Made by a program: the position numbers and the translations under genes | The notes under the pieces: generated by a model | What the model saw: the letters and a program-made list of their open reading frames with translations, nothing else | The model's database searches: none | What the model was told of the DNA's origin: nothing | Shown here: positions 2,223 to 63,245 of the stretch, one piece after another | How positions within the stretch are numbered: the stretch's first letter is position 1 | Layout of the letters: the number at the start of each line of letters is the position of its first letter | Assembly: GCA_052327205.1 (NCBI GenBank) | Contig: CM126206.1 | Coordinates: 300,204,001-300,268,000 of the forward strand | Source: Somniosus microcephalus | Lineage: Eukaryota | Reading direction: 5' to 3' | Length of the DNA stretch: 64,000 nt

Positions 2223-2885
2223 TGAATCGGAGCTACAGCTATGAAAATAAAGGTGGGTGAGGACCCTTCGCCAAAAGCTAAAATTCTTAAACTTTTGCAT
2301 TAATTTTTTTTGAAGTGCAGCCTGTAGAAGTTTCTAGTAGAATCACTGATATAAAATGGGCCAGATTCCCTAATGGCAGAACACAGACTGGAACTCTACT
2401 TGTGCTCCCATTCAGTGAAGCTCTGCTTCTGGAGTGGAGCCTTGCTGAATTTGTCCTATAGTCCTAGAGAAAAACGAAACACCAGCATTAATCCATTTTT
2501 TGGAAGTTTAAATTTTAAAAAGGTGCTGGAAAAGAGATTCCCAATTTAAAAAATTGTTGCAAAGCCCAAGATAAACTGAAAAACTAAATCAGAGATGATT
2601 TGTTTGATACATGTCATGCTGGGAGAGAAGGACTTACCACAGAACATCTCCCAGTGCTAGCATTTAGAGGAAAACCAAACTTATTTTGGGAAGAATTGAA
2701 TTTCTTTGCCAATGGCATTAAAGACAATTTGCTCAAGAACTTGAGAAGTAATGGGTTGGAGAGAAATAGAATCATTGTTGGATACTGAATGGGTATCATA
2801 AGATTTATTGATTAGAGCAATCCACACACCCATCCAACTAACTGGGAGTAGGGATAATGATTGAGATAGATTGAAGATATAGTTG

Positions 2886-3110
2886 AAATAACAACAGAAA
2901 ATGCTGGAAACACTCAGCAGGCCAGGCAGCATCTGTGCCGAGAGAAAGAGAGTTAACATTTCAGGTCTGTGACCCTTCGTCAGAACTGGAAAATGTTAGG
3001 GATGTAACAGGTTTTAAGCAGGTGTAGAGGCAGAGAAAGGTGGGGGGGGGAGGGGAGGAAGGGACTAAAGGGACGGTCTGTGCTAGGGTGGAAGGTAGGA
3101 GAGATTAAAT
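2886..3110 (-). mobile_element. Penelope-like element terminal-repeat fragment with hammerhead motif (2951-2989)
   Basis: Same family as 36149-36738; minus strand reads agtt-CTGACGA-agggtc-aca-gacct-GAAATGTT-aact. Confidence 0.7.
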
Positions 3111-3227
3111 GTTGTAAATGGGGATGGCAGAATCATTTTGATTGAATCATTGAATTGATTATTTTGCTATTGTGTTAGTGTGAAGATATAGTTGAGGTGG
3201 GGTCGATAGCTGCAGACATTGTTGAGA

Positions 3228-17406: not shown

Positions 17407-18323
17407 AATGTTTCAGGTCGTTGACCCTTCATTAGAACTGGCAATGTTCTGCAGTAACCATTTACACCTCCTCTGGACCCATCTTGTGTTTCTTCACTTG
17501 TCTTGGTATCACCTGATTTTGCATTGCACCATAATTTCTGCTGTTATTTAATCACTCCTGCTCTCCACCCTATCACAGACCTCTCCCCTTTGTTCTTTCC
17601 CTGCCCCCTTGTCCCTGGCTCTGTACTTGCTTAAAAGCTGGTCATCTCTAACATCTTCTAGTTCTGATGAAACGTCATCGATCTGAAACGTTAACTCTGT
17701 TTTTCTCTCTCCACAGATGCTGCCTGACCTGCTGAGTGTTTTCCAGCATTTTCTGTTTTTATTTCAGATTTCCAGCATCCGCAGTATTTTGCTTTTGTTG
17801 CAGTAATACAGAAGCCTGGACTAATAATCCAGAGAACGTGAGTTCAAATCCCACCATGGCATTTGAATTCAGTTTTAAAAATCCAGAAAGGAAAAGCTGG
17901 ATCAGTTAAAGTGACCATGAAGCTGTTAGATTGTCATAAAAACCAGAAATGAACCTGCCGTCTGGCCTGTATGTGACTCCAGTCCCACACTTAGTTGTAC
18001 CAAACTGCAGTGGTTCAACAAGAAGGCCCACCACCACCTCCTCAGGGCAGCAAGTAATGGTAAATAATTGCCTAAGAATTAATATTAGAAAAACTGGCTA
18101 TGAAAGTAAAACTGGGTTGTGTCAAATGCGGGTAGTCATTGTTTTATAAAATCTATGTTAAGGGCGACTGGGAGATAGAAGTAGCTGTTGAGGGTAGCAG
18201 TGAAGTACATCCCAGTTTATTATGAAATATATATGTGTATTATAGAATAGTGTATAATACACTGCATGTATATACTGCATATTTAGTACGTCTTTCATGC
18301 TTATCTGTCCCATTTCTAATTAT

Positions 18324-22899: not shown

Positions 22900-23830
22900 T
22901 ATAGAGCGTACCTACACGTGCGTTACATCAAAAGAAAGCTTACGATTCCGGAACAGTTGTAAGCGTATTTACGTTTCGGCCAGACAAAAATTGCGCCCGC
23001 GGTATCCAAAAAACGTTCAAAATTCCGCTCATTAGCATCTCATTATCTGCTCATTAGCAATAGAGTGACGTCGAGGTCGACCAATCGTACGGTGGGTTCC
23101 TGGCGCGTGCGGGCGGGCCCTCCTACAGTCGAGTGACGGGACGATTGACCAATCCTACGCTTCGGTGACCTGACGGTCCACCAATCGGTGCGTGTGTGGG
23201 CGGGTCTTATCGTTTTGAACCGAGGTGAGTCGCCGCCATCTTGATTCCAAACTTTTCATTTCTTTTTCCCGCTTTCTGCATGTTTCTTTTCAAATCTACA
23301 TTTCCAGCAAAACAAAAGTTGCTTTTAAAAGACAAATTGTTTTTAAAAAAAGTTAATTAATTTGTAAATCTTTTGTCTAACCTCTATAATTTTCCTACCT
23401 TTCACCGTTTTTCCAGGCCTCAAAGCCTGGGCGTCTGTTGACCAGCCACGCCCGAGCTAGGCACCTCCCGTCGCGATCGACAAAAGGCCAGCGATCGCCG
23501 CCATCTTTGTGAAGGCTGGAGGGGGCGGGCCTGAGCCGAGCGTCGCCACCGCCGCCATCTTAGTAAAGGCGGGCGGGAGTCAGCGTCCGCGTCATCTTCC
23601 GCCCGGAGCGCAACTTGAGCCCGGCCGGGCCTCACGCGGTAGGTTGCGCGGCGGCGTCTCTCTGGTCTTGAAGCCGGCTCGGGCGGGGAGCGGGGCTCCG
23701 GAGAGTGGGAGGGCGGGGCTCCAGAGAGCGGGAGGGCGGGGCTCCGGAGAGCGGGAGGCCGGTGCTCGGGAGGGCGGGTTTCGGGCTGAGCCATGTCAGT
23801 GCGTGGGGCGGCACGGAGCTCCACGGAGCC
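22900..23830. promoter_or_regulatory. CpG-island promoter, probably bidirectional
   Basis: Non-repetitive and CpG-rich; CCAAT at 23081, 23149, 23181; GC boxes; TGACGTC at 23066; ETS palindrome ttccggaa ~22946; YY1 CGCCATCTT at 23234, 23499, 23553; plus donors GAG|GTGAGT (23224/5) and GCG|GTAGGT (23638/9); minus donor ATC|GTAAGC (22944/3). Confidence 0.8.
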
Positions 23831-23844
23831 ATCGGGTCTGCTAG

Positions 23845-24552
23845 CTCCCCCCCTCCCTTTCTCCCCCCACACCCCCCCTCCCCTCCCCTCTTCCTCTCCC
23901 CCCCTTCCCCCCTCCCCTCTCCCCCCTCTCCACCCCTCTCCCCCCCACCCCTCCCCCACCCCCCCTCCAGTCGCTCTCTTCCCACCAGTCGCTCTCTCTC
24001 TTCCCCCAGTCGCTCTCTCTCTTCCCCCCCAGTCGCTCGCTCTCTCTCTCTTCCCCCCCAGTCGCTCGCTCTCTCTCTCTCTTCCCCCCCAGTCGCTCGC
24101 TCTCTCTCCCCCCCAGTCGCTCGCTCTCTCTCCCCCCCCAGTCGCTCGCTCTCTCTCCCCCCCAGTCGCTCGCTCTCTCTCCCCCCCAGTCGCTCGCTCT
24201 CTCTCCCCCCCAGTCGCTCGCTCTCTCTCCCCCCCAGTCGCTCGCTCTCTCTCTCTCCCCCCCCAGTCGCTCGCGCTCTCTCTCCCCCCAGTCGCTCGCT
24301 CTCTCTCTCCCCCCCAGTCGCTCGCTCTCTCTCTCCCCCCCAGTCGCTCGCTCTCTCTCCCCCCCCAGTCGCTCTCTCTCCCCCCCAGTCGCTCTCTCTC
24401 TCTCTCTCTCCCCCCCAGTCGCTCGCGCTCGCTCTCTCTCTCTCGCCCCCCAGTCGCTCGCTCTCTCTCTCGTCCCCCTAGTCACTCGCTCTCTCTTCCC
24501 CCCAGTCGCTCACTCTCTCTCTCTCTCCCCCCCCCCAGTCGCTCTCTCTCTT
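23845..24552. repeat. Polypyrimidine tract plus ~21-30-bp minisatellite (CCCCCAGTCGCTCGCTCTCTCT)n
   Basis: More than 20 variable units directly visible; source of the spurious low-complexity ORFs 23705-24653. Confidence 0.95.
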
Positions 24553-24699
24553 CCAACAACAACATTCCCTCAAAAATCCCCTCGGCACCGCCGGGCACTT
24601 CAGCTAGTATGTGTATAAACGGTTCAAAATCTTTTGGCAACTTACTTTTTTAAGCAAATCTTCTAATACTTTAAGTTTGATTTAATTTTTTTGTAAATA

Positions 24700-25140
24700 A
24701 AGAACAAACTTGCATTTATATAGCGCCTTTCATGACCTCAGGATCTCCTAAAGCGCTTTACAGCCAATGAACTACTTTTTGAAGTATAGTCACTGCTGTA
24801 ATGTAGGAAATGTGACAGCCAATTTGTGCACAGCAAACTCCCACAAACAGCAATGAAATGAATGACTATATCATTTGTTTTAGGTGTTGGACGAGGGATA
24901 ACTGTTGGCTTGCACACTGCGAGAACTCCCCTGTTCTTCAAATACAAGGCACACATGAGAGGGCACATGGGGGCCTCAGTTCAATGTCTCATCCAAAACA
25001 CGGCATCTCCGACAGTGAAGTGCTCCCTCAATACTGTACTCAGTGTCAACCTTGATTATGTGCTCAAGCCTCTGGAGTGGGACTTGAACCCACAACCTGA
25101 CTCAGAGGCAAGAGTGCTACCACTAAGCCAAGGCTGACAC
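24700..25140 (-). mobile_element. Near full-length tRNA-headed Deu-domain SINE (SacSINE1-like)
   Basis: Minus strand: A box tggcttagtgg, B box ggttcaagtcc, Deu-like core gagggagcacttcactgtcggagatgccgtgttttggatgagac, tail gcgctatataaatgcaag. Confidence 0.8.
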
Positions 25141-31864: not shown

Positions 31865-32145
31865 TTATTCATGGATGTGGGCATCACTGGTATTTATTGC
31901 CCATCTCTAATTGCCCTTGAGAAGGTGGTGGTGAGCTGCCGCCTTGAACCGCTGCAGTCCATGTGGTGAAGGTGCTCCCGTAGTGCTGTTAGGGGAGGGA
32001 GTTCCAGGACTTTGACCCAGCGACGATGAAGGAATAGCGATATAGTTCCAAGTCAGGATGGTGTGTGACTTGGAGGGGAACTTGGTGGTGTTCTCATGCG
32101 CTTGCTGCCCTTGTCCTTCTAGGTGGTAGAGATCACAGTTTTGGG
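31865..32145 (-). mobile_element. LINE 3'-end fragment (CR1/L2 group)
   Basis: Reverse complement ends ggttcaaggcggcagctcaccaccaccttctcaagggcaattagagatgggcaataaat; tail shared with the SINE at ~18010-18070. Confidence 0.6.
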
Positions 32146-33325
32146 CACAGTGTTACCATCCTGGCCAACATGTGAAGAAAGTCTGTTTTCTGTAAATGTC
32201 TGGGCTGTGGATTTGTGGTAAATCTGTAATTGAAAATGATCCTCTACGTAATTCCTCTCAAGGCAGCAGTAGATTCCCACCATGAGTCCTAACTATAGTT
32301 TTCCTGCACCCCTCGGCAATGTTGAGGTACAAAATCTCAGTGAATACTGAATTTCCTTTGTATCTAGTAACATGTGCTCTCTTTCTGCCATTACCACACA
32401 GGCACAGAATACAAGTGAGTCTGAGATTTTGCAGTACTCCTCAGGGCAAACTTTGCGACTTTAGTGTTCCCAGCGCAGAGGTTTGCACATCAGGAGTGCC
32501 TATCTGGAATAAAAGGAGATCGTAAGAGGGGTGCCCCCAAATTCCCAATATGCCATTTCAACACACGAGGTGCTCTGCGCCAGGAGCATTAAAGATGACA
32601 ATTTACTCCCTAATATAGATTCATTGCACAGATTCAAGGAGAAGAGGCACCAATCAAGTGGCAAAATTTACACAGATTAAATCTGTTTACCATCAGTTTT
32701 GGACCAGACAATAAAAGTTTGATCTTTAAAATAGAAGTTCATTTTTTCCACTTGCATCTACGTCTCATGACGTAGAGTAATTAATTATTAAAGATTTCAA
32801 TACATTCTCATCAACCAACAAAGGAAACCCCACAGCTTCAACCACAATTTCTCACCCTTCCATGCCCTGCTCCTATACTGCCCTCCTATTGGGTTTTGGT
32901 TTTGGAAAAGAGTGGAAACCCTAAATTTTAGTCCTACAGTACAGCCTTGTAACTTTTGACAGGAAGATGAAAAACCATGAATGAAAGCAAATTCCTGTGA
33001 ATACACAGGAGTTTGATCAGCCTCTGAAACAGACACAAGATGAATGTTTCAAGTGTGACCTTTCATCAGGAAAAAGGAACTATGTTTTCCACCCTGGTAC
33101 ATCTGATTAATATACCAACATAGCCAAAATAATCAGTATGTCAATTTTTTTGCAGAAAGATCTACTGCAGCTGACATATTACCATCCTTTGAGAATTATG
33201 TAATTCCAAATAATTTCAATAAAATGCACAATGCAGTAATAGGCCTGTTTTCCTGAATCAATACTAACAAGTTCCAACAAGTTGCTATTTCTAGACAATT
33301 TTAAAAGTGTGTATATATATATTAT

Positions 33326-33449
33326 GGGATCAGAATGAAAACTCAGTCAAAGAGATATTAAAGTATTAAATATATATATATTACATTGCCATTCCACAAT
33401 TATTTTTAATGCTTTAATAACTCTTTGACTGAGTTTTCGTTTTGATCCC
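33326..33449. repeat. ~125-bp fold-back element with ~45-bp arms
   Basis: gggatcagaatgaaaactcagtcaaagagatattaaagtattaaa vs tttaatgctttaataactctttgactgagttttcgttttgatccc. Confidence 0.85.
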
Positions 33450-34315
33450 CCACTAATCTTTTTAAGTCTCCAGCTCGGAGTTCTCCTGCCCACTGCTTGT
33501 CCCCTCCTCTCCCCATTAATGTGATCTGCAACATTTTTTGATGTTGCTGTTGGAATTAAAACATTTATATATAAAAAGACATCAACCGAGATTATTTAGA
33601 TATAGAACCCAAGATACGGATTGCCATGTGGCATTTTTTAGGTGATGTTAAATGCTTTTCCACCCAGTCAGGGACTAAATCTATTTTTTGTAATGGTCGT
33701 TGAACATGAGATGGATTTTGCTGATAGCACTAAGGCAATCAAACCCTGTTCTTCCTTTGACAGATGCTATTTAGCAAATAGAGTGATGGTCTGTCCTTTA
33801 CCTTTCGCTGCTACAAATCTATGTCTAGAGGTGACTACAGGGGGGTTCCCTACCCTTCCCGAAATAATCAGGGAAAATTCCAAAGAAGCCTTTTGTCTTT
33901 CACTATTCTTTTACTGGTTACTGTCGGCTTCCTTTCTGGTGTCAAGGAGCTAAGTTCTGGTTTTCTTTGTTGGACAGGGCTGAGAGCATTCCACTGATGA
34001 TAGTGTAAATCTTCGGCACTAGGATTTTGATCGGAATGCGATAAACATTCTTTACTCCAGCAAATCTTTTGTTTGCAGTAAGATATTTTATATTAACAAG
34101 CAGACTCCCCAGTGGTGTTGCTCACACAGAGTCAGAGGATTCGGTGTTTTCTAACAATAATCTTATTGTGCCATGTGGAGGTTAACATTACCGTTACTGA
34201 TTTGCAGTGACTGAATAAGTCAAATTCCACTTTTATGACTTGGCATTCTGTGATTTTTAGCGGTGCTTTGAGGATCGAATTTGGTGACTATGTCCACAGT
34301 ATGTAAAAACTGTAA

Positions 34316-35402
34316 GGGGGCAAAATTCAGTTGGTTTGCACCTCCCGTTAGCGCCTTAAGAGGGTGCTAATGGGGCGCAAAGCAACTAGTGCCCGTGCGT
34401 GGCAATGTTTGCGCTGCTCACGAAATTAACTAGACATTTTGCGGCAGCGCTAAACACTACCACCATGATCTCCTGCGCCGGCAGATCGTGATGTCAGTCG
34501 AGTGTGCAACGCCCCGGTAGCGCCCCAGACCAGATATTGAGTGGCGCCCCCTGCCTTACTGCCTGCCGCTAGCAACGACAGGTTGAGGGGAGCGTTTTGC
34601 AGTCAGGAAGGGACTGGGGAGCGCTATTTAAAGGCAACTACCTGCCTTTTTTTGTTGGTGACATTTTTGCACCACGCATTCTGAGACAGAGAGAGAGAGA
34701 CTTCTGGAGAGATTCAACGCTGTGTGAAGGAGTTTTGGGTACTGAGCAGCACTTTGCAGGTTCATTTTGATTTGCCCTTCCTTGTATCGATTTAGAAGAG
34801 ACTGTGGGGGCTGCACTCTGAGCTCTTTCCCTGGGTCTCTCCATTGTTCTTTCCAGCAGATTTGATGTACAGGTCTCTCCAGGCTGAGATTCAAGACTGC
34901 AATGAGCAGGATGTGGATGGAGAGCAAGATCAACCCTCCCCTTTAAAAACTGGCCGGCGCCATTGTGTCTGTGTTCCATTGCTGACTGACATCACATGAA
35001 CTTCGCCAGCGCTCTTGAGGTAGTGTTAGATCCGTGTGTTAATGGAGACACGGAATGCAGGAGTTGATTTAACAAGTGTTTACTGAACAAAGTCTGGAGG
35101 TGAACTAACAACACAAGACGCTACACAGGCTTATATACCCGAGTGGTCACTACTGGTACTACAGTATACAGGGGCTTCAAAAACATAGTTCCTCTTAAAG
35201 GTACATACACTACAATTAGCGCCTCGCTCCTCGGCCTTTGCGCCTTAAGACAGTTGTGAAGCACCTGATTTAGCGCTCCAATCACCTCCAAGGGCGATAA
35301 AAGCCAAGTTTGCAGTCGGAGGCGATAATTAGCGCCAGGAGCTAATCTTTGCGTCCGGCCGATAATTGCGCCCCAAATGGGGCGATACTGAATTTCTCCC
35401 CC
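34316..35402. mobile_element. GC-rich non-autonomous PIF/Harbinger element
   Basis: TIRs gggggcaaaattcagt / actgaatttctccccc; TSD TAA; sister copy in reverse at 62251-63245. Confidence 0.88.
35024..35214. mobile_element. Probable solo LTR (191 bp) nested in the Harbinger element
   Basis: TG…CA ends (tgttag / ctaca); absent from the sister copy at ~62430; flanks ggtag/attag. Confidence 0.65.
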
Positions 35403-35444
35403 TAAGTGTTTTATATATATCCCTTTGCCTATATATTTGGGTGT

Positions 35445-36075
35445 AAGAGGGCGCTAACGGGGCGCAAAGCAACTAGTGCCCGGGTGCGGCACCGCCAACG
35501 CCTCCCGCGAAATTCAGCGGGAGGTTAGCGGCGGCGGTAACTGTTAGCTCCAGCCGCGATCTTTGGTAGCGCCCCCTGACTTACCGCTGGGCACTATACC
35601 TGCGGTCGGGGCGGTGCTAATTAAAGGCGAGGTGCCGAGCAGTCATTTTTGTTGCTGGCCGCCTGCCAGCACCTGCCCCCATTGCCGTTCCCGGCCTCCT
35701 GACCAGTCCCCCCGTGGAGTGCCGGCTGCGCTCCATGAGCCCGGCACTTCTCTTGAGTGCCAGGCTCTTTTGCCGGCACTCTGATCCCTGGTGGCCCAGC
35801 TGGGCCCTGGGTCGCGCTGCGCACGGCCCCTCCCCTTTAAGAAGGGGAGGAAGGCCTGCAGTACCGTGGCGCGACGTGCTGCAGAACGTGGCGCTGCGGC
35901 ACGTAGCGCCGCGATATTCCCTCGCAGCGCCCCAAGAGGGAGGCGGGGTGCTTCCAGTAGTGCCCCGCTTCCCTCTTGGGGCGCTACCGATGAATTTTGG
36001 CCGTGGGGGCGCTAAGAAAAGTAGCGCCCTGGCGAATTTAGCACCCCAAAGAGGGCGCGACTCAATTTTTCCCCC
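35445..36075. mobile_element. Related GC-rich Harbinger MITE, left end truncated
   Basis: Starts with the subterminal block aagagggcgctaacggggcgcaaagcaactagtgccc also seen at ~34358; ends aattttt ccccc. Confidence 0.7.
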
Positions 36076-36211
36076 TTAATTTTTATCACTTACTATTTTT
36101 AAAGCTGAGAATTCACAGCATGAGAATATGAAAGACAGACCAGTTGGAATAACAACAGAAAATGCTGGAAATACTCAGCAGGCCAGGCAGCATCCGTGGA
36201 GAGAGAAACAG

Positions 36212-36248
36212 AGTTAACGTTTCAGGTCTGGGACCCTTCATCAGAACT
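36212..36248 (-). ncRNA. Minimal type I hammerhead ribozyme motif
   Basis: agtt-CTGATGA-agggtc-cca-gacct-GAAA-CG-TT-aact: core boxes, stem II, stem I agtt/aact, palindromic ACGT in place of stem III. Confidence 0.7.
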
Positions 36249-36604
36249 GGAAAAAGCTGGAGATGTAACAGATATTAAGCCGGTGCAGAGACTGGGGGAT
36301 GGGGGTTAGGAGGGGAGGAAGGAATAGAAAGAATACCCTGTACTTTTGTAAGGAACAGCACCTCATCTTTCGATTGTGCACTTTGCAGCCTGCCGGACTC
36401 AACAATGAGTTTAACAATTTCAGATAATTATCCCTGCCCCCATTTTTCATGCAGTATGATTTTTGCCATTCCCATTTGCAACATTTTATCTTTCCTGCCT
36501 CTTACAAAAGTACAGGGTGTTCTTTCTATTCCTTCCTCCCCTCCTAACCTCCCCCCCCCTGTCTCTGCACCTGCTTAATATCTGTTACATCTCCAGCTTT
36601 TTCC

Positions 36605-36641
36605 AGTTCTGATGAAGGGTCCCAGACCTGAAACGTTAACT
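36605..36641 (+). ncRNA. Minimal type I hammerhead ribozyme motif
   Basis: Identical to the copy at 36212-36248, on the opposite strand. Confidence 0.7.
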
Positions 36642-36802
36642 CTGTTTCTCTCTCCACGGATGCTGCCTGGCCTGCTGAGTATTTCCAGCATTTTCTGTTG
36701 TTATTTCAGATTTCCAGCATCCGCAGTATTTTGCTATTACAGACCAGTTGGACTTAGATATCCGATATTTATCAGTGTGGTGGGGGGGGAAGGGGAGTAG
36801 CT

Positions 36803-37007
36803 TCACTGTGAAAGTGGTCCTGATCTTTGATAGCATCGCTCTGGAGGAGCACCCTGAGGTTTGGCAAAACTGGTGGTGGAACGTTGAGGAATGTGGAGTT
36901 TTGGCTGCTGGTGTTTGTCAACAATGAGAGGAGGGAGAGGGTCCCGGTCCGGCAGCCCTGGGAGGTCCAGGTCTGACAGCACTGGTTTGTACGTTTCTAA
37001 GACACCT
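36803..37007 (-). CDS. Terminal coding exon of an unidentified host gene
   Basis: attagtttttgcag|A GGT…; (R)GVLETYKPVLSDLDLPGLPDRDPLPPL…PPERCYQRSGPLSQ*; phase 2 matches the exons at 52183-52259 and 54218-54285; non-repetitive. Confidence 0.8.
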
Positions 37008-37865
37008 CTGCAAAAACTAATTTCAGTGCTTTCTGATTGGTTCCTGGATGTTTGTTTCTTTTCTTTCTCTCGCAACTGTCACTGATTACAATGCTTACAT
37101 TTTCTAACTCTTAACAAATCACAGCTAATGCTGATTAAAATCTTTGTTTGCTTGAGAGGCTTTCAAAATTCAATTCATTTGTTCTTTATATTTTGAAAAA
37201 GAGAAAAAGAACTCCATTTAAGACGAGGAAAGACATTGGATTTTCCATTTCAGTGCTCCCTAGCCTGTGATTTCTGCACATTCATTTTAATGGATGGAAA
37301 ATCATGGGCTGGAAAATCACAGCCACTGTTTCTCTGTCTGCCTTCCTGCCTGAGTCTCTGATTTGCTATCTCTGTCTCTATTTCTGTTGTAAATTAAATA
37401 ATAAGAATGCCTTTGGTGTGGAGGGGGCCCATGCCAGCTGTACACAAGCACCCGATGCATTAAAGATAATTTATTAGTTAAAATAATATCCGATCCGTAA
37501 GATACCCGATGTAGACCAACTATTCAATTGGAAGTGTCAAACCAGTGAATATCTAATTCCCAATTAATTTGAACCGCAGAACAGAGGGAGTCACTGACTT
37601 TGATTAATCCGCAATATTTATTCAATTACGCGATTAGCTACTAGCTAACCTTTCCTGCATTTGCTTAAATTACATACTCATGTTCATGTATACTTATGCC
37701 CATGTGCACCACAACTACTACTTCTTTTGGAGATGATCATCTTCTAGCATGCTGTGTTTTCTCTTGTTCGACAACAATGATTTCACCAAAGGCTTTTATA
37801 ACTCACTTGTTATGAACAGTGCCCATGGCTTACTTGTTGTATTTGGACGATAACGCCAGAAATCT

Positions 37866-39680: not shown

Positions 39681-40154
39681 ATGGGCCAGATTTCCAAATC
39701 TCTAACCCAAACTATTTCATCTGGATTTATATAAAATTTGGCTTTGGTCCTTCACATTTGTGATATTTGTACTAAAAGGACGATGCTATACTTGCCACCA
39801 TCCAATTTCCATTTTCCATTACCCATCCCACAGTACGATTGGAAATATAAATGAATAGCTTTTATTTAAAGGTTTAGTTAAAACTTTACTCAAATTCATT
39901 GTCCATTATGTATTCAAATAATTTTCAACAACACACAAACTGAATTACTGTTAGACACAGAGTGTCAATTTGACTTTTCTACTGAAAAAAATAATAGTAC
40001 AGTATGTTTATAATTTGAATATAAACAAAAGCTGCAACCGGTGTGTAATCAGTGGAGTCTTTGAGATTTAAAATGGATCTCTTCTTTCTCATATACACTC
40101 ACACGTGCACTTAAACAGTCAACCTGCACACGTTTTGCTTTAAAAAGGAGGGGT

Positions 40155-43100
40155 TGTAGGAATGGTCAACTTCCTATCTAGAGATTGAGTTCGACGCAGG
40201 CAATCAATCAAAAAGGTTTTTAATGTCAAACTAACGAGTTTAAACAGATTGATGCAAGAGAACTATGAATACAGGTCTTAACAGGTCGGAGGCTCCACGA
40301 GGACTGCCAGGGCGGTCCCGTGGATGGCGTCATGACGTCATCACGTTTTTCCCACGTTTGGGTGATCAAGTGATTAGCGGCATGACGTCATCGCGTTTGC
40401 CCGCGCTCTTAAAGGGACCGCGCACTGTACGTGCAAACAGTGTATACAATGGTACAGATTTAGTCTGTAGCTAACACATCGTTAAAGGGAATTATGTACA
40501 GTTGTTCAGAGTCCCTCAGTGACTCTGCCACATGCGCCCCCCCCCCCCGGAATTGCCTTTAATGGAAAAAGTCAAACGGTGAGGGGGCCTGACAAGCCGG
40601 TGAGGGGGCCTGACAAGCCTGTCAGAACGACTCCGGTATTCTCGAAGCGGAAGCTGTTGGACGGCGGGCGGTCTGGCGGGTGGTTGCACTTGTTCTGGCA
40701 TGACGACGGTGGGCGGCCGACCTCGTTTCGGTGGCTGTGCTGTCTCGACGGGACGGTCAAGGTCCAGGTGTGCTGGCTTCAAACGGTCGACCGAAATGTG
40801 GTCCGGTTTACCACCGACATCCACCTTGAAGGTTTTGTCTCCTGCCTCTTAACACACGGAAAGGACCAGTGTATGGGGCCTTGAGCCGATCCCGGTGAGC
40901 ATTGTGGCAGATGAACATGTAGTCGCATTGTTTCAGCTCCGCTGGAACGTGAGAGCCCTGAAACCCATGATGCGTTGTGGGAACCGGCACGAAACATCTG
41001 GCTGCTTCCTGGTGACTGATAAGCTGGTGTGAGGCGGACCATGGCTCCGTTGGTGTTGGCAGGACATCCCCTGGCACTCGCAGCAGCTGACCATAAACGA
41101 GCTCTGCCGCAGAAGAGTGAAGATCTTCCTTGGGGGCCGTGCGAAGGCCCAACATGACCCACGGCAGCTTGTCTGCCCATCCGGCGTCTTGGAGGCTGGC
41201 CCTCAGTGCGGCCTTAAGCGATCTGTGAAAACGTTCGCACAGACCGTTCGCTTGTGGGTGGTAGGCTGTGGTGCGGTGTAACTTGAGTTGTTGAGCCACC
41301 GCATTCCAGAGTGCGGAGGAAAACTGCGGTCCCCGGTCCAAAGAGATGTCAGCAGGCACTCCAAAACAGGCGACCCATGAAGAGATGAACGCCCTGGCCA
41401 CGTCCGTCGAAGTAGTAGATGACAGGGGAACCGCCTCCGGCCATCTGGTGGTGCGATCTACTATGGTCAGGATGTGCGTAAAACCATGGGAAGGTGGAAG
41501 TGGTCCTACCAGGTCCACATTAACGTGGTCAAACCGTCACTCAGGAACTGCAAAGGTGGCCAATGGAGCCTTGATGTGGTGCTGTACCTTGGCCTTTTGG
41601 CAGACCACGCAGGTGTTGGCCCAGTCGCGGACATCTTTATGCATGCCCCACCAAACGAACTTAGACGACATTAGCTTCTGAGAAGCCTTCATTCCTGGGT
41701 GTGACAACCCATGTATGGCGTCAAACACCTTGCGGCGCCAGGCGACTGGCACAATTGGGCGAGGGTCCCGAACGGAGACGTCACACAGCAACGTGGTATC
41801 AGCCGAATGGAGTGATGACTGCGGTCTTCTGGACATCCTGCGGGTGCACTGGGACCTGGTGGTAGCCCCGGACGAGGTCGACCTTGGAGAAGAAGTTGTT
41901 TCCAGCCAAATGGGCAAAGAAACTCTGAATGTGGAGGATCGGGTATCGATCAGGAGTGGTGGCGCCGATAGTCGCCGCAGGGCCGCCATCCGCCGCCAGG
42001 TTTCGGAACGATGTGAAGAGGCAAAGACCGGGGACTATTCGACCTGCGAATAATCCCTAAGCGTTCCATTGTAGCGAACTCCGCCTTCGCGACCGCTAGC
42101 TTGCCAGGTTCGAGGCGCTAGGCCCGCGCGTGGACCGGGGGGCCGGTGGTGGTGGTGGTGGTGGTGGTGGTGATGTGGTGTGGCCGTGGAGGAGAACGTG
42201 GGCCTGGTCAGGTCTGGAAATTCGCCTTGCAGGCGAGTGAACTCATTCGGAGTCGGGAAAGCGCAGGAGACGGTGCGCGACATGGTGTTACTACGGTGGC
42301 AAGGGATAGAGTGAAACGTGGCCGCGTTGATGAGCCGCCGGTTCCTGTTGGCGCACAGGAAATCTGCACCAAGAATGGCTTGCGAAACCTTGGCCGTAAC
42401 GAATTCCCAGAAAAACCGCTGGCCGCTGAAGCACACCTGGACCCGCCGTCTGCTGAAAGTCCGAATAGCTCCACCATTAGCCGCTTCGAGGGGGAGGCCG
42501 TGCCTCCCAGCCTGTACATCACGCACTGACGCGGGTAGGATGCAGCACTGCGCTCCGGTGTTGCACAGGAACCGACGACCGGAGAGGGTATCTGTGATGA
42601 AGAGCAGCTTGCCTGCATTGCCGATCGCAACCTGTAGCAACCGCGCCTTGAGGGTCTCATACTTGCGGTCAGTTGGGGGATTCCCGAGAAGACTGACGAT
42701 CCACGAGGCGGTAGAGCCGTCGCGTGCGGAGACCACGTATAAGTATTGGGTCTGATCCTCAACAATGCCTCTCAGGGCAAACTGGGCTTCAACTTGGATG
42801 AACCACGAGGTTGCTTGTTGCTCCCAGAACTGCGGCAGCTTCAACAAAACGGCATTTGCCTCCATGCTGTGTTCCTTTTGCGAAATCCGTTCACAAAAGT
42901 CGAGGTCACCAATGTAGGAATGGTCAAATTCCTATCTAGAGATTGAGTTCGACGCAGGCAATCAATCAGAAAGGTTTTTAATATCAAACTAACGAGTTTC
43001 AACAGATTGATGCAAGAGAACTATGAATACAGGTCTTAACAGGTCGGAGGCTCCACGAGGACTGCCAGGGCGGTCCCGTGGATGGCATCATGACGTCATC

Positions 43101-43290
43101 ACATTTTTCCCGCGTTTGGGTGATCAAGTGATTAGCGGCATGACGTCATCGCGTTTGCCCGCGCTCTTAAAGGGACCGCGCACTATACATGCAAACAGTA
43201 TATACAATGGTACAGATTTTGTCTGTAGCTAACACATCGTTAAAGGGAATTATGTACAGTTGTTCAGAGTCCCTCAGTGGCTCTGCCACA
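40155..43290 (-). mobile_element. Internally deleted Gypsy/Ty3 LTR retrotransposon
   Basis: 378-bp LTRs 40155-40532 and 42913-43290 (TG…CA, about 12 mismatches); TSD GGGT; PBS tggtgacctcgac (tRNA-Trp-like); G-rich PPT at ~40535-40550; gag LKLPQFW…WF.QVEAQF, protease FLCNTGA, integrase H-H-C-C and DLVGP/DRG/NGLCER. Confidence 0.95.
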
Positions 43291-44660
43291 GGGTGACTAA
43301 AAGCTTGGTCAAAGAGGTAAGTTTTAAGGAGGGACCTAAAGGAGAAAATAGAGGTGGAGAGGTTTAGGGATGGAATTTCTGAACTTATGATCTAGACAGC
43401 TGAAAGCAGGGCCGCCAATAGTGGGGCAAAGGAAGTGGGGGCTGCACAAGAGACCAGAATTTGAGGAACGGAGAGTTCTTGTAGGGTTGCAGAGCTGGAG
43501 AAGGTTACAGAGATTAGATGGGGTGAAGCCAGGAAGTGATTCGAACACAAGGATGAGAATGTTAAATTGCAGGGGTTGGGGGATTGGGAGCCAATGTAGG
43601 TCATTGAACACAGGGGTGAGTGGGACTTGGTGTGGGTTATGATACTGACAGCAGAGTTTTTGGATGAGCTGAAATTTATGGAGGATGGGAAGCCAACCAG
43701 GAGAGTATTGAAATAGTTGGGTCTGGAGGTGGCAAAGACATGGATAAGCATTTTGGTAGCAGGTGGGCTGAGGCGAGGCGGCGACAGGTGATATTACAGA
43801 GTTGAAAATAGGCTGTCTTTGTGATGGAGAAGGATAGCTGGCCGGAAGCTCAGCTTGGAGTCAAATAGGATGCTAAGGTTGTGAACAGACAGCTTCAACC
43901 TCAGACAATGGCTGGGGTGGGGGAATGGAATCAGTGGCGAGAGTTTGTGGTGGGGGCCAAAGATGATAGCTTGGTCTTCCCCATATTTAACTGAAGAAAA
44001 TTATGGCTCATCTAGGACCAGATTTTGGACAAGTAGGCTGACAACACAGAGACAGTGGAGGGGTCGAGAGAGCTGGTGGAGCGATGAAGCTGGGCATCGT
44101 CAGCATACATGTGGAATCTGATGCCTTGTCTTCTGATGATGTCGAGGAGTGGCATGTAGATGAGAAAGAGGAGGGGACCAAGGATAGATCATTGGGGAAC
44201 TCCAGAAGTAATGGTGCAGGAGCAGGGAGAGAAGTCATTGCTGGAGACACTCTGGCTAGCATTGGGTGGAACCAAGCAAGGGAAGTCACACTGAGACAGA
44301 CAACGGAGGAGAGGCGTTGGAGATGGATGGTGTCGTCGACTATGTCAAAAGTTGCAGAGAGGTCGAGAAGAATGAGGAGGGATAGTTTACCACGGTCACA
44401 ATCATGCAAGATGTCATTTGTGGCTATGATTAGGGCAGTTTCAATGCTATGGCAGGGGTGGAAACCTGATTGGAGAGATTCAAACATGGGTTGTAGGAAA
44501 GATGAGCACACATTTGGGAGGCACCAACACATTCAAGGACTTTGGAGAGGAACAAGAAGTTGGAGATGGGGTGGAAGTTTCCAAGGACAAAGGGGTAGAG
44601 AGTGTTTTTTGAGGAGGGGGCTGATGACGCCAGTTTTGAAAGGGGAGGGGGACAAATCCT
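43291..44660 (-). mobile_element. L2-clade LINE RT fragment
   Basis: QSGFHP.HS.ETAL, LLDLSATFD and LHWLPI motifs in ORFs 43336-44681. Confidence 0.88.
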
Positions 44661-47140: not shown

Positions 47141-47832
47141 GATCAGATTAGATTTATTTGCCATATGTAACAAGTACAATGGAATGCTTGTTCCCCGTAG
47201 GGAAGCGTCAGCTATACACACAGTGCCACGTTCAGAGTCAATACAATGGCTTCCCGTGGCAGTGGGAGCACGATGTCCCTCAGCCGCTCCGTCCTCCTCT
47301 TCACCGCGGTCTCCTCCTCTCTGTTGCCGGCTCCACGTGTGGTGGCCTGCTTCTCCCGCTCTGGCCACCATGCCTGGCTCCCCTCCTCCCATCCGGACTG
47401 CGAGTTACCCGAAGTGGAGCTGCCGGCCGATGTGCTGCAGCGTGTCGTGAGTCTGCTGCTGCTGCTCGTTGCGCTGCGCTCCTCTGCCCAACTCGCCGAA
47501 CACATCGTCGGGATGTGAATGCTCCAATGCGGCCCCCTCTTCACCGGCTCCACGCTCCACGGCCCGGGGCCTACTTCTCTCTCTTCACGGGTCGGCCTCT
47601 GGCCGCCATGCTCGGCTCCCCTCCTCCCAGTCGGAATTCCTTCCCGCCGAGGAGCTGCCGGCCGATGTGCTCCAGCGGGTCGGCTTGGCTGCTGCTGCTG
47701 CTCACCGCGCTGCGCTGCCTCTGCCCGACTCGCCGAGCACCTCGCTCTGGTTGCGGGAGCGAGCGGCGAGAGCTGGCCGCCCGAAACAGGGAGAGCGATC
47801 TCAGCACCGGACCGTCACGGCCGCCATCTTGA
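47141..47832 (-). mobile_element. CpG-rich non-autonomous retroposon inserted in an old CR1 fragment
   Basis: Minus strand starts caagatggcggcc and ends aaataaatctaatct; internal degenerate tandem duplication; flanks rejoin as CR1-like cttatagaggtata…gatactaagtgga. Confidence 0.55.
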
Positions 47833-48189
47833 GATACTAAGTGGATTCAAAAAGTTTAATCCGGAGCACTATTTCAAGTTAAACCATGACTGTAGGACAA
47901 GATAAAAGGCAAGTTGAGGACTGGTGTCAGGAAGTATTTCTTCACAAATAGAGTGATTAATACTTGGAATGATCTTCCAGCTGGTGTAATGGAGGCAAAA
48001 ACTCAGCTTAGATGTTGTTGGGGGCCTATAGGTTTACATTGAATGGGTGAGCTAGATGGACTGAATGGCTCCCGCATCTGTACTTGTCTGTATGATATTT
48101 TTTCCAGGGACACTAAGGTCAATTGTACCAGGTACTTATTTTTAAAGGAAAAACGTTGACTAGTAAATAATAGGGGTGGAAGAAATTGT

Positions 48190-54217: not shown

Positions 54218-54285
54218 CTGAGCTGCAAATGTTTGAAGGAGACTTGCTTCAAGGCCACTACTAGTGATGCTCGATAAACTGACTG
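54218..54285 (-). CDS. Candidate 68-nt alternative exon, paralogous to 52183-52259
   Basis: Branch point ctaac, pyrimidine tract, cccag|CAG…CTC AG|gtatgg; QSVYRASLVVALKQVSFKHLQL(R); phase 0 to 2. Confidence 0.5.
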
Positions 54286-54789
54286 CTGGGAGGCACGTGG
54301 GAGAAGGTTAGGGTGACACATTCTCCACTTTTCCTCTGGCCCCGCTTGGTACCTTTGACAGTACAATGTCATTCATTATGTAAGGCAGCGCAAATGTAAA
54401 CTAACCACCCCCCATTTTGTAGCACAAGCTCCAACATGTTCAACTTGTTTTATTTTAAATCAGGTAGCCCCATTCAGTGGATAAGTGTACCATGTGATGA
54501 GGCATTGAGCTATGCAGAGCAGAAATGTCCCTGGTTTGATTCTTGCGGGTAATTTTTCAACTTCAGCGGGGGTGGAACATGGGCAGTAGTGGATCGGGAG
54601 CCCGTTATACACCCTGCCTGACTTTCCTTTTCATTGACTACATTGGCCCCTTGGTCTGTGCTCTTAGCCAGTGTGAGCCAAAGTGGGCCCACAATGTTTA
54701 AATGTAATGGCGCTCAATCTGAAAATTCCAGAGTCTCCCACATGGCAGCTGTCTCCCATTCTGCCAGAACATTTCACACCTAATCTAGA

Positions 54790-55040
54790 GCCGTCTTTTG
54801 TCTCCACTAGTCCTATCACCATCTCGTCTGGTTTTGAATACCTCTTAGTGTCTCTTCACTTCTTTTGTTCTCTCCCAGCCCTGCCTTTCGATCTATTTCA
54901 TTTCCTTTCCAGTTTTGAAAAAGGGTTTGACCCGAAACGTCGACTCTATTTTCTCTCCACGGATGTTGCCTGGCCTGCTGAGTTTTTCCAGCATTTTCTG
55001 TTGTTATTTTGGATTTCCAGCATCTGCAGTATTTTGCTAT
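54790..55040 (+). mobile_element. Penelope-like terminal-repeat fragment with mutated hammerhead core (54911-54945)
   Basis: agtt-TTGAAAA-agggtt-t-gaccc-GAAACGTC-gact followed by the family tail cctgctgagtttttccagcattttctg. Confidence 0.7.
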
Positions 55041-62250: not shown

Positions 62251-63245
62251 GGGGGAGAAATTCGGTATTGCCCATTTTGAGGCGCGATTATCGGCCGGGC
62301 GCAAAGTTTAGCGCCTGGCGCAAATTATCGCCGCCTACTGCAAAATTTGTCTCTATTGCCCCTGGAGGTGATTGGAGCATTAAATCAGGTGCTACACACC
62401 TCTCAAGGCGCTAAGCCGGAGGAACGGGGCGCTACCTCACAGCGCTGGCGAAGCTCATGTGATTTCAGTCAGCAATGGAACACAGACACACTGCCACCGT
62501 CCAATTCTTAAAGGGGAGTTCTGATGAATGATCATCGACCTGAAACCTTAACTCTGTTTCTCTCTTCACAGATGCTGCTTGACCTGCTGAGTATCTCCTG
62601 CATTTTCTGTTTTTATCTTAAAGGGGAGGGTTGATCTTGCCTTGCTCTCCATCCACATCCTGCTCATTGCAGCCTTGAATCTCGTCCTGAATCTCAGCCT
62701 GGAGAGACTTGTACATCAAATCTGCTGGAAGGAACAATGGAGAGAACCAGGGAAAGAGCTCAGAGTGCAGCCCCCATAGTCTCTTCTAACTCGATACAAG
62801 GAAGGGCAAATCAAAACCAACCTGCAAAACTCCTTCACACAGCGTTGAATCTCTCCAGAAGTCTGTCTCTCTCTCAGAATGCGTGGTGCAAAAATGTCAC
62901 CGACAAAAAAGGCAGGAAGCGGTCGCCTTTAAATAGCGCTCCCCTAGTCCCTTTCCGACAGCATAACGCTCCCCTCAACCTGTCGTTGCTAGCGGCAGGC
63001 GGTAAGGCAGGGGGCGCCACTCAATATCCGGTCCGGGGCGCTAACGGGGCGTTGCGCACTCGAATGACGTCACGATCTGCCGGCGCAGGAGATCGTGGCG
63101 GTATTGTTTAGCGCCGCCGCAAAATGTCCGCTCAATTTCGAGAGAGGCGCAGGTCTCGCCGCGCTCGGGTGCTAGTTGGTTAGCGCCCCACTTATCGCCC
63201 TCTTAAGGCGCTAACGGGTGGCGCTAACAACTAAATTTCTCCCCC
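62251..63245. mobile_element. GC-rich non-autonomous Harbinger element (sister of 34316-35402)
   Basis: TIRs gggggagaaatt / aatttctccccc; TSD ATA. Confidence 0.88.
62519..62615 (+). mobile_element. 97-bp Penelope-like fragment that starts at the hammerhead motif
   Basis: 13-bp TSD tcttaaaggggag (62506-62518, 62616-62628); absent from the sister element at ~34940. Confidence 0.8.

What the first reader, a model, noticed from the sequence alone, without database searches (positions are those of the whole stretch)
36135..36805. Two intact hammerhead motifs in a ~200-bp inverted repeat 65 nt past a host stop codon
Seen: a Penelope-like insertion with a 14-bp TSD and near-identical inverted arms (36149-36352, 36501-36704), each carrying agtt-CTGATGA-stem II-GAAACGTT-aact. 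It lies just downstream of the minus-strand gene's TGA (36803), so probably in its 3' UTR, where the 36212-36248 copy is in sense. Established: Penelope-like elements carry minimal type I hammerheads with a palindromic stem III thought to act as dimers. Inference: the mRNA would hold a long duplex (ADAR or Dicer substrate) that pairs with and masks the ribozyme, a possible stability switch.
Basis: partly seen in the sequence, partly recalled or inferred. Interest (0 to 1): 0.7.

Follow-up and report, generated by a model that had tools for sequence, protein, structure and literature searches.

The report
Truncated Penelope retrotransposon copy with hammerheads
This is a short, recent leftover copy of a very abundant Penelope-type jumping gene, and its mirror-image ends each carry the class's usual tiny ribozyme motif; it is likely an ordinary passenger, with the ribozyme predicted to be locked shut by its own hairpin and no sign found of a host message running through it.

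Summary
The sequence observation holds: a perfect 14-bp TSD, 204-bp arms at 97% identity, and two identical minimal type I hammerhead motifs on opposite strands. The element is a 5'-truncated, Neptune-like Penelope-like element (PLE). The 'spacer' holds the last 24 codons and stop of a PLE GIY-YIG endonuclease (10 of 17 identical to Neptune-1_Ac). After it come a pLTR with the hammerhead and a 34-nt tail; a tail-less inverted pLTR forms the other end. This layout is published for PLEs. Five more copies lie in the window, and reads from other copies end at both tail edges.

The 3' UTR switch is unsupported. The supposed host exon has no homolog and zero depth in 2 of 2 RNA runs, and 21 of 188 acceptor-like sites give frames as long. 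No excess of editing-type changes was seen. On either strand the antisense arm is transcribed first and costs the ribozyme fold about 70 kcal/mol, and the two motifs cannot dimerise in one RNA. Verdict: an ordinary new copy of a known kind.

The parts
36135..36148 (+). Left target-site duplication, 14 bp
36149..36352 (-). Inverted, 5'-truncated pLTR copy without tail (second PLE 3' end)
   Evidence: 6 mismatches of 204 to the right arm
36212..36248 (-). Minimal type I hammerhead motif; predicted cut after GUU at 36216
   Evidence: cleavage not tested
36353..36427 (+). Last 24 codons and stop of a PLE GIY-YIG endonuclease ORF (Neptune-like end motif)
   Evidence: translation, compared by eye with Fig. 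S2 of PMC8557442: 10 of 17 identical, ungapped, to Neptune-1_Ac; Pfam, Atlas and protein search gave nothing
36428..36704 (+). Forward pLTR region; 36501-36704 is the right arm of the inverted repeat
36605..36641 (+). Minimal type I hammerhead motif, identical to the minus copy; predicted cut after GUU at 36637
36612..36737 (+). Open frame of 42 codons from an ATG in the hammerhead core to the tail end; likely the start of the next tandem ORF copy
   Evidence: open over the stretch held in 3 of 5 other copies; inference from PMC3846280 and PMC11167929
36705..36738 (+). 34-nt PLE tail, present at one end only
   Evidence: loose ends of reads from other copies at 36706-36707 and 36735-36737
36739..36752 (+). 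Right target-site duplication, 14 bp
36803..37007 (-). Unverified candidate last exon of a host gene (acceptor AG before 37007, TGA 36805-36803); not part of the element
   Evidence: 54% GC against 35% upstream; no homolog; RNA depth 0 in 2 of 2 runs

Best explanation
It is a short copy of a high-copy Penelope-like retrotransposon between 14-bp target duplications, made of an endonuclease-gene end, a hammerhead-bearing pLTR and a 34-nt tail plus an inverted tail-less pLTR, and it is likely a functionless recent insertion whose ribozyme motifs would be locked in a long hairpin on either strand. How it likely formed (inferred): the element's protein nicked both target strands 14 bp apart and primed reverse transcription twice, from the two internal start sites that bracket the tail. 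One cDNA began at the tail end and ran 386 nt back into the last codons of the upstream ORF. The other began at the inner edge of the tail and ran 204 nt. The two truncated cDNAs were then joined head to head. The hammerheads are inherited pLTR parts. Both point outward, so any read-through RNA makes the antisense arm first and zips the helix over the sense motif. One RNA holds only one sense motif, so the dimer that such minimal ribozymes need cannot form in cis.
For: TSD, arms and tail. The spacer reads as the terminal E...RL.T..P.GLN motif of PLE endonucleases and is followed by a stop. It is 10 of 17 identical to Neptune-1_Ac and to Neptune1_Nv, while the Poseidon and Penelope rows lack this spacing (by eye). 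The layout of inverted pLTR, 30-40-bp tail at one end and TSD is published, as are priming on both strands and two RT start sites bracketing the tail. Five other loci of the family lie in the window; two have their own 13-15-bp TSDs and two have an inverted piece. About 120,000 and 85,000 contigs were laid on the stretch, which also holds a second repeat family; summed depth on the right arm was about 2.5e5 times single copy, which is not a copy number. Reads from other copies leave the element at both tail edges: 150 and 319 reads at 36706-36707, and 145+386 and 511+777 at 36735-36737. Forcing stems I and II costs 69.7 kcal/mol in the whole element on either strand and 5.6-6.7 in one arm alone. 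The active dimer evaluates at -8.5 against -19.3 kcal/mol for a misfolded dimer. RNA depth is zero over the candidate exon and the unique downstream sequence.
Against: No database search recognised the 24-residue remnant, so the endonuclease call rests on a by-eye match to a published alignment. No full-length partner was retrieved. The empty site was not shown: no piece near the site was among the 8 records listed for run X4. The candidate exon is GC-rich, has a fair acceptor, and has a phase-compatible candidate donor at 54218, so a real gene is possible. The two RNA runs are of unknown tissue and were read to about 24% and 31%. The two-sided priming step is not distinguished from fold-back self-priming.
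Confidence: 0.86

Rival explanations
1. The insertion lies in the 3' UTR of a real, tissue-restricted host gene. It gives the mRNA a 204-bp duplex that is edited by ADAR or retained or degraded, as a passive side effect, and the ribozyme stays silent.
For: TGA 64 nt from the element, an acceptor-like site and 54% GC; phase-compatible candidate donor at 54218. No AATAAA on the minus strand until 31898. Penelope copies are massively edited in lizard, and exonic retrozyme copies in Xenopus tend to lie in 3' UTRs.
Against: Depth 0 in bins 36866-37147 and 33200-34186 in 2 of 2 RNA runs. No homolog for either candidate exon. Frame length is within chance, 21 of 188. A>G plus T>C make up 0.43 and 0.39 of transition places in RNA against 0.41 in DNA of the same species label, though other copies dominate these reads. 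A variant signal GATAAA lies 30 nt before the element (variant status recalled).
Confidence: 0.2
2. The host has adopted the hairpin and ribozyme as a stability switch: editing or unwinding of the duplex frees the hammerhead, which cuts off the poly(A) tail.
For: The core nucleotides are complete in both copies, and the outer 132 nt of the arms, which include the motif, are identical. Hammerheads in 3' UTRs have a precedent in rodent Clec2 (figure legend).
Against: The element looks young (perfect TSD, 97% arms) and is one of very many copies. One sense motif per RNA cannot dimerise in cis. A single minimal PLE hammerhead showed no cleavage and dimers only low activity; the anole PLE ribozyme needed the PLE protein, and no RNA-seq ends were found at its cut site. 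Stem II closes with G-U and the triplet is GUU. The masking penalty is about 70 kcal/mol. No transcript of the locus was seen, and no end pile-up at the cut site was among the 13 of 16 rows shown.
Confidence: 0.03
3. It is the same PLE fragment, but the inverted arm arose by fold-back self-priming or template switching on one cDNA rather than by two priming events.
For: Self-priming was proposed for head-to-head PLE inversions. The 14-bp TSD fits either route.
Against: The inverted arm stops at the inner tail edge, a second end point shared by many other copies. A 148-nt unpaired spacer separates the arms, and all 6 mismatches lie in the inner 72 nt (chance 0.002-0.04 with a boundary chosen after the fact), as if the two arms had different templates.
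Confidence: 0.3
4. It is a self-propagating non-autonomous unit (retrozyme or MITE-like element) that moves with this fixed 590-bp hairpin layout.
For: Animal non-LTR retrozymes derive from PLE pLTRs, and inverted arms with a TSD look MITE-like.
Against: The other five loci have different inner end points. Summed depth on the spacer is 11- and 74-fold lower than on the arm. There is no head-to-tail tandem of hammerheads, and an ORF remnant is present.
Confidence: 0.05

Closest known systems
Endonuclease-positive Penelope-like elements, Neptune clade: 5'-truncated insertions with inverted pLTR and tail (PMC8557442, PMC3846280)
   Same: Inverted 5'-truncated pLTR next to a forward copy; 34-nt tail at one end only; TSD; hammerhead in the pLTR; ORF ending in the GIY-YIG terminal motif with Neptune spacing.
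   Different: Only 24 codons of the ORF remain, so the RT was not seen and the clade rests on 17 residues. The TSD is 14 bp against 8-10 bp in the rotifer examples read.
Poseidon from Anolis carolinensis, PAc (PMC11167929)
   Same: Two end points bracketing the tail; ORF start overlapping the hammerhead; no transcript ends seen at the cut site.
   Different: The endonuclease end motif resembles Neptune rather than Poseidon; the ATG sits within the core rather than at the start of stem II; no biochemical test exists here.
Minimal type I hammerheads of metazoan PLEs (PMC4209133)
   Same: Complete core boxes, an extra nucleotide before stem II, short stem I, palindromic stem III without a loop; pairs on opposite strands 100-700 bp apart were already noted in Schistosoma.
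   Different: G-U instead of the conserved G10.1-C11.1 pair; stem II of 5 bp rather than 7-8.
Animal non-LTR retrozymes (bioRxiv 10.64898/2026.07.22.740005)
   Same: PLE-derived, type I hammerhead.
   Different: Not a head-to-tail tandem; the two motifs are on opposite strands; ORF remnant and TSD present.

Membership tests
EN+ Penelope-like element insertion | pLTR carrying a hammerhead motif | tested here: met
EN+ Penelope-like element insertion | Inverted 5'-truncated copy adjacent at the 5' end | tested here: met
   feature as described
EN+ Penelope-like element insertion | 30-40-bp tail at one end, with family copies ending at both tail edges | tested here: met
   34 nt; loose ends at 36706-36707 and 36735-36737
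EN+ Penelope-like element insertion | Target-site duplication | tested here: met
   14/14; empty site not shown
EN+ Penelope-like element insertion | C-terminal GIY-YIG endonuclease at the ORF end | tested here: met
   terminal motif plus stop, 10 of 17 identical to Neptune-1_Ac by eye; too short for Pfam
EN+ Penelope-like element insertion | Telomerase-like RT in the autonomous partner | tested here: inconclusive
   no long copy in the window or in the collections scanned; no genome held
Neptune clade | Placement in an RT phylogeny; CxxC linker | not testable with these tools
   RT and linker are not in the fragment
Minimal type I hammerhead ribozyme | CUGANGA and GAAA boxes, UH site, stems I and II, palindromic stem III | tested here: met
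   90% of cells paired in 8 window rows, but no two-sided changes and no excess over shuffles
Minimal type I hammerhead ribozyme | G10.1-C11.1 pair | tested here: not met
   G-U in this copy; G-C in 1 of 8 rows
Minimal type I hammerhead ribozyme | Match to an Rfam hammerhead model | tested here: not met
   none at gathering score or among 19 matches up to E 10; likely because stem III is missing
Minimal type I hammerhead ribozyme | Self-cleavage (as a dimer) | not testable with these tools
   no end pile-up listed at the site; the active fold is not the predicted minimum
Non-LTR retrozyme | Head-to-tail tandem units, each with a hammerhead | tested here: not met
   the two motifs are on opposite strands
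3' UTR inverted-repeat regulatory element | Lies inside a host transcript and is edited or processed | tested here: inconclusive
   no RNA over the candidate exon in 2 of 2 runs; no editing excess; tissues unknown

The most novel reading that the evidence does not exclude
A tissue-restricted host mRNA runs through this young PLE hairpin, and A-to-I editing or the PLE protein opens the duplex and lets the hammerhead cut in trans-dimers with the abundant family RNA: a transposon-sensing, editing-gated self-destruct switch in a 3' UTR.
Probability: 0.03. Interest if true: 0.7.

Novelty: new member of a known kind. Interest (0 to 1): 0.14.

Why it matters
It matters little as a single locus. It is a clean example of the published PLE insertion layout. 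Its two ends fall on the two family end points around the tail, which fits the in vitro finding that PLEs prime on both strands from two internal sites. Because the layout makes long perfect hairpins by default, a genome with very many such copies would carry a large dsRNA load; that is a family-level question already raised for lizard Penelope (PMC5625713). Only if a host mRNA were shown to run through it and be cut or edited would it become a regulatory case.

Tried and rejected
Rfam gave no hammerhead match.

No whole genome is held for this window, so no genome-wide count or empty-site search was possible.

Host gene identification failed. The candidate last exon gave no hit in the word-indexed protein search, one weak 24-residue hit among 1.84 billion representatives, nothing significant in PDB or the Atlas. 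A Pfam scan of 41 frames (the candidate exon plus 40 of the 52 unique minus-strand frames upstream) gave no match above a curated cut-off. The candidate upstream exon at 54218 also gave nothing. These collections may hold few such proteins, so the blanks are weak.

Search for an autonomous partner failed. A pLTR motif found 0 matches in viral and metagenome contigs. An ORF-end motif gave 27 and 11 loci; in the 22 of 38 reported by blastn the match was limited to the motif and a few adjacent bases, so all were treated as chance. The remnant peptide found nothing.

No RNA holder was listed on record by the run search.

Covariation in 8 window rows was uninformative.

The primary paper on PLE hammerhead dimers (PMC5785218) is not held; I saw it only as cited in a review. 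A ranking of GUU against GUC was not found in the passages read, so 'GUU is weaker' is recalled.

MITE/retrozyme reading rejected: the inner end points differ between copies.

Assembly artefact rejected: unitigs of run X2 match both junctions with 0 differences at single-copy depth, though they reach only 22 and 25 nt into the element and X2 may be the source sample.

Full report
**1. Observation.** A 14-bp direct repeat lies at 36135-36148 and 36739-36752. The arms 36149-36352 and 36501-36704 differ at 6 of 204 positions, all in the inner 72 nt. The minus-strand RNA folds to -440 kcal/mol, z -34 against 20 shuffles. The hammerhead pattern occurs at 36216-36244 (-), 36609-36637 (+) and 17664-17692 (+), with no match in 100 shuffles. 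Both copies have complete core boxes, a 4-bp stem I, a 5-bp stem II closed by G-U, a loopless palindromic stem III and a GUU site. Rfam does not detect them. The organism is not known from any call; a cartilaginous fish is my recalled impression and agrees with unchecked earlier notes.

**2. What it is.** First, 36705-36738 is a 34-nt extension at the right end only. Second, the first 75 nt of the spacer read EQHLIFRLCTLQPAGLNNEFNNFR and a stop. In Fig. S2 of PMC8557442 (supplement part 55) PLE endonucleases end in this motif. By eye the match is 10 of 17 ungapped to Neptune-1_Ac and to Neptune1_Nv, whereas the Poseidon and Penelope rows lack the spacing. Pfam, the protein search and the Atlas did not recognise the 24-mer.

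The forward unit (36353-36738, 386 nt) is therefore ORF end, pLTR with hammerhead, and tail. An ATG in the hammerhead core (36612) opens 42 codons to the tail end; this frame, or its second half, is open over the stretch held in 3 of 5 other copies. The inverted unit is a second 3' end without tail. This is the layout described for PLEs: an inverted 5'-truncated copy, a 30-40-bp tail often at one end (PMC8557442, passages) and a TSD (PMC3846280, passages). Hammerhead pairs on opposite strands 100-700 bp apart were reported in Schistosoma (PMC4209133, parts 1-2 of 4).

**3. Family.** Five other loci of 100 bp or more lie in the window at 73-88% identity. The locus at 2872-3195 has a 15-bp TSD, an inverted arm and a tail remnant; 62506-62628 has a 13-bp TSD; 17407-17796 has an inverted hammerhead piece, an arm and a tail. 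No TSD of 8 bp or more was found for 3 of the 5.

Laying four runs on 33200-37400 put 119,734 and 84,512 contigs on the stretch, which also holds a second repeat family. Summed depth on the right arm was about 2.5e5 times single copy, and 11 and 74 times that on the spacer bin; the tool warns that this is not a copy number. Of the RNA reads laid, 60-65% ran on into unlike sequence, that is, they came from other copies. Among the listed loose ends (2621 more not shown), reads leave the element at 36706-36707 (150 and 319 reads) and 36735-36737 (145+386 and 511+777). These are both edges of the tail, the signature tied to two internal RT start sites in PMC11167929 (parts 1-2 of 4).

Run X2 has unitigs matching both junctions with 0 differences at depth 21-23 against 26 for single copy. 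They reach only 22 and 25 nt into the element, under the tool's 31-nt rule, and X2 may be the source sample. The more distant organism C (25 substitutions in about 1113 nt of flank) showed no listed piece across the site, so the empty site was not seen.

**4. Host gene and 3' UTR.** In favour: an acceptor-like site at 37007, a 68-codon frame, 54% GC against 35% upstream, a TGA 64 nt from the element, and a phase-compatible candidate donor at 54218. Against: no homolog, and 21 of 188 acceptor-like sites in unique sequence give frames as long. RNA depth was 0 in both runs over 36866-37147 and over the seven unique bins 33200-34186 (1.68 and 1.45 billion letters, about 24% and 31% of each run). 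The tissues are unknown and human-like reads are silently dropped, so this does not exclude the gene.

On the minus strand the first AATAAA is at 31898; GATAAA (a weak variant, recalled) occurs 30 nt before the element and again just after it. A>G plus T>C made up 0.43 and 0.39 of transition places in RNA and 0.41 in DNA of the same species label. This shows no family-wide editing excess at this likeness threshold, but heavily edited reads could be lost and locus-specific reads were absent. No read-end pile-up at the predicted cut was among 13 of 16 rows shown; fragmented cDNA libraries are a poor test for it.

**5. How it works.** Shown: the anatomy, family membership and shared end points. 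Inferred: nicks 14 bp apart on both strands, two priming events from the two tail-edge sites, and head-to-head joining of two truncated cDNAs. The rival is fold-back self-priming; the tail-less outer end, the 148-nt spacer and the inner clustering of mismatches lean toward two events but do not settle it.

For the ribozyme, both motifs point outward, so on either strand the antisense arm is made first and the helix is predicted to be zipped up to the motif when it emerges. Forcing stems I and II costs 69.7 kcal/mol in the whole element and 5.6-6.7 in one arm. Even alone the motif prefers a misfold, and the active dimer scores -8.5 against -19.3 kcal/mol for the best dimer (tertiary contacts not modelled). 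One RNA holds one sense copy, so no cis dimer is possible. Published minimal PLE hammerheads were inactive as monomers and weak as dimers, or needed the PLE protein. Masking is thus real in prediction but constitutive, not switch-like.

**6. Comparison and novelty.** It works like, and on every feature that the fragment lets one test is, an endonuclease-positive PLE insertion, probably Neptune-like; the RT could not be tested. It fails the retrozyme test. Editing of Penelope copies is known in lizard (PMC5625713, passages), and 3' UTR location of PLE-derived copies in Xenopus (bioRxiv 10.64898/2026.07.22.740005, part 1 of 5 and passages). Seven literature searches listed no paper on this family or on a PLE hairpin-hammerhead UTR switch, judged from titles and abstract starts; subscription journals are largely missing and bioRxiv supplements are closed. 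Other papers seen as passages only: PMC6155905, PMC6765202, PMC3138052. Three earlier unchecked notes from other genomes describe the same layout and are not independent support.

**7. Verdict.** A real but ordinary new copy of a known kind; interest 0.14. The UTR-switch reading has about 3% probability.

Noticed in passing
window 2872-3195: Family copy with a 15-bp TSD, a 260-bp inverted arm and only about 14 nt of tail end: the forward arm was lost or never made.
   Followed up: partly
window 62506-62628: 100-bp family copy with a 13-bp TSD inside another repeat; it starts right at the hammerhead core and lacks the tail.
   Followed up: partly
window 17407-17796: Copy of a different subfamily with a short inverted hammerhead piece, a different spacer, a forward arm and a tail.
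   Followed up: partly
window 54906-55040: Older copy with a G-C closing pair and a GUC site but a broken first core box; many RNA loose ends at 36204 and 36649 resemble this subfamily.
   Followed up: partly
window 36281-36334: All 6 differences between the arms lie in the inner 72 nt, 4 of them within 11 nt of a G-run; different templates or homogenisation of the outer part are possible.
   Followed up: partly
window 34300-36080 and 62260-63230: Another very high-copy, transcribed repeat family with many GGGCGC-type motifs and a 60-nt hairpin at 35926-35985; not identified.
   Followed up: no
window 40150-43300 (-): Decayed LTR-retrotransposon-like element (Gypsy-like by recall) with a pair of direct terminal repeats and integrase-like frames.
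   Followed up: no
window 54218-54372 (-): Candidate upstream exon with a strong donor whose phase fits the acceptor at 37007; no homolog found.
   Followed up: partly
window 23400-24700 and 47150-47900: Two GC-rich islands, one with long simple repeats and one with an internal duplication; not identified.
   Followed up: no
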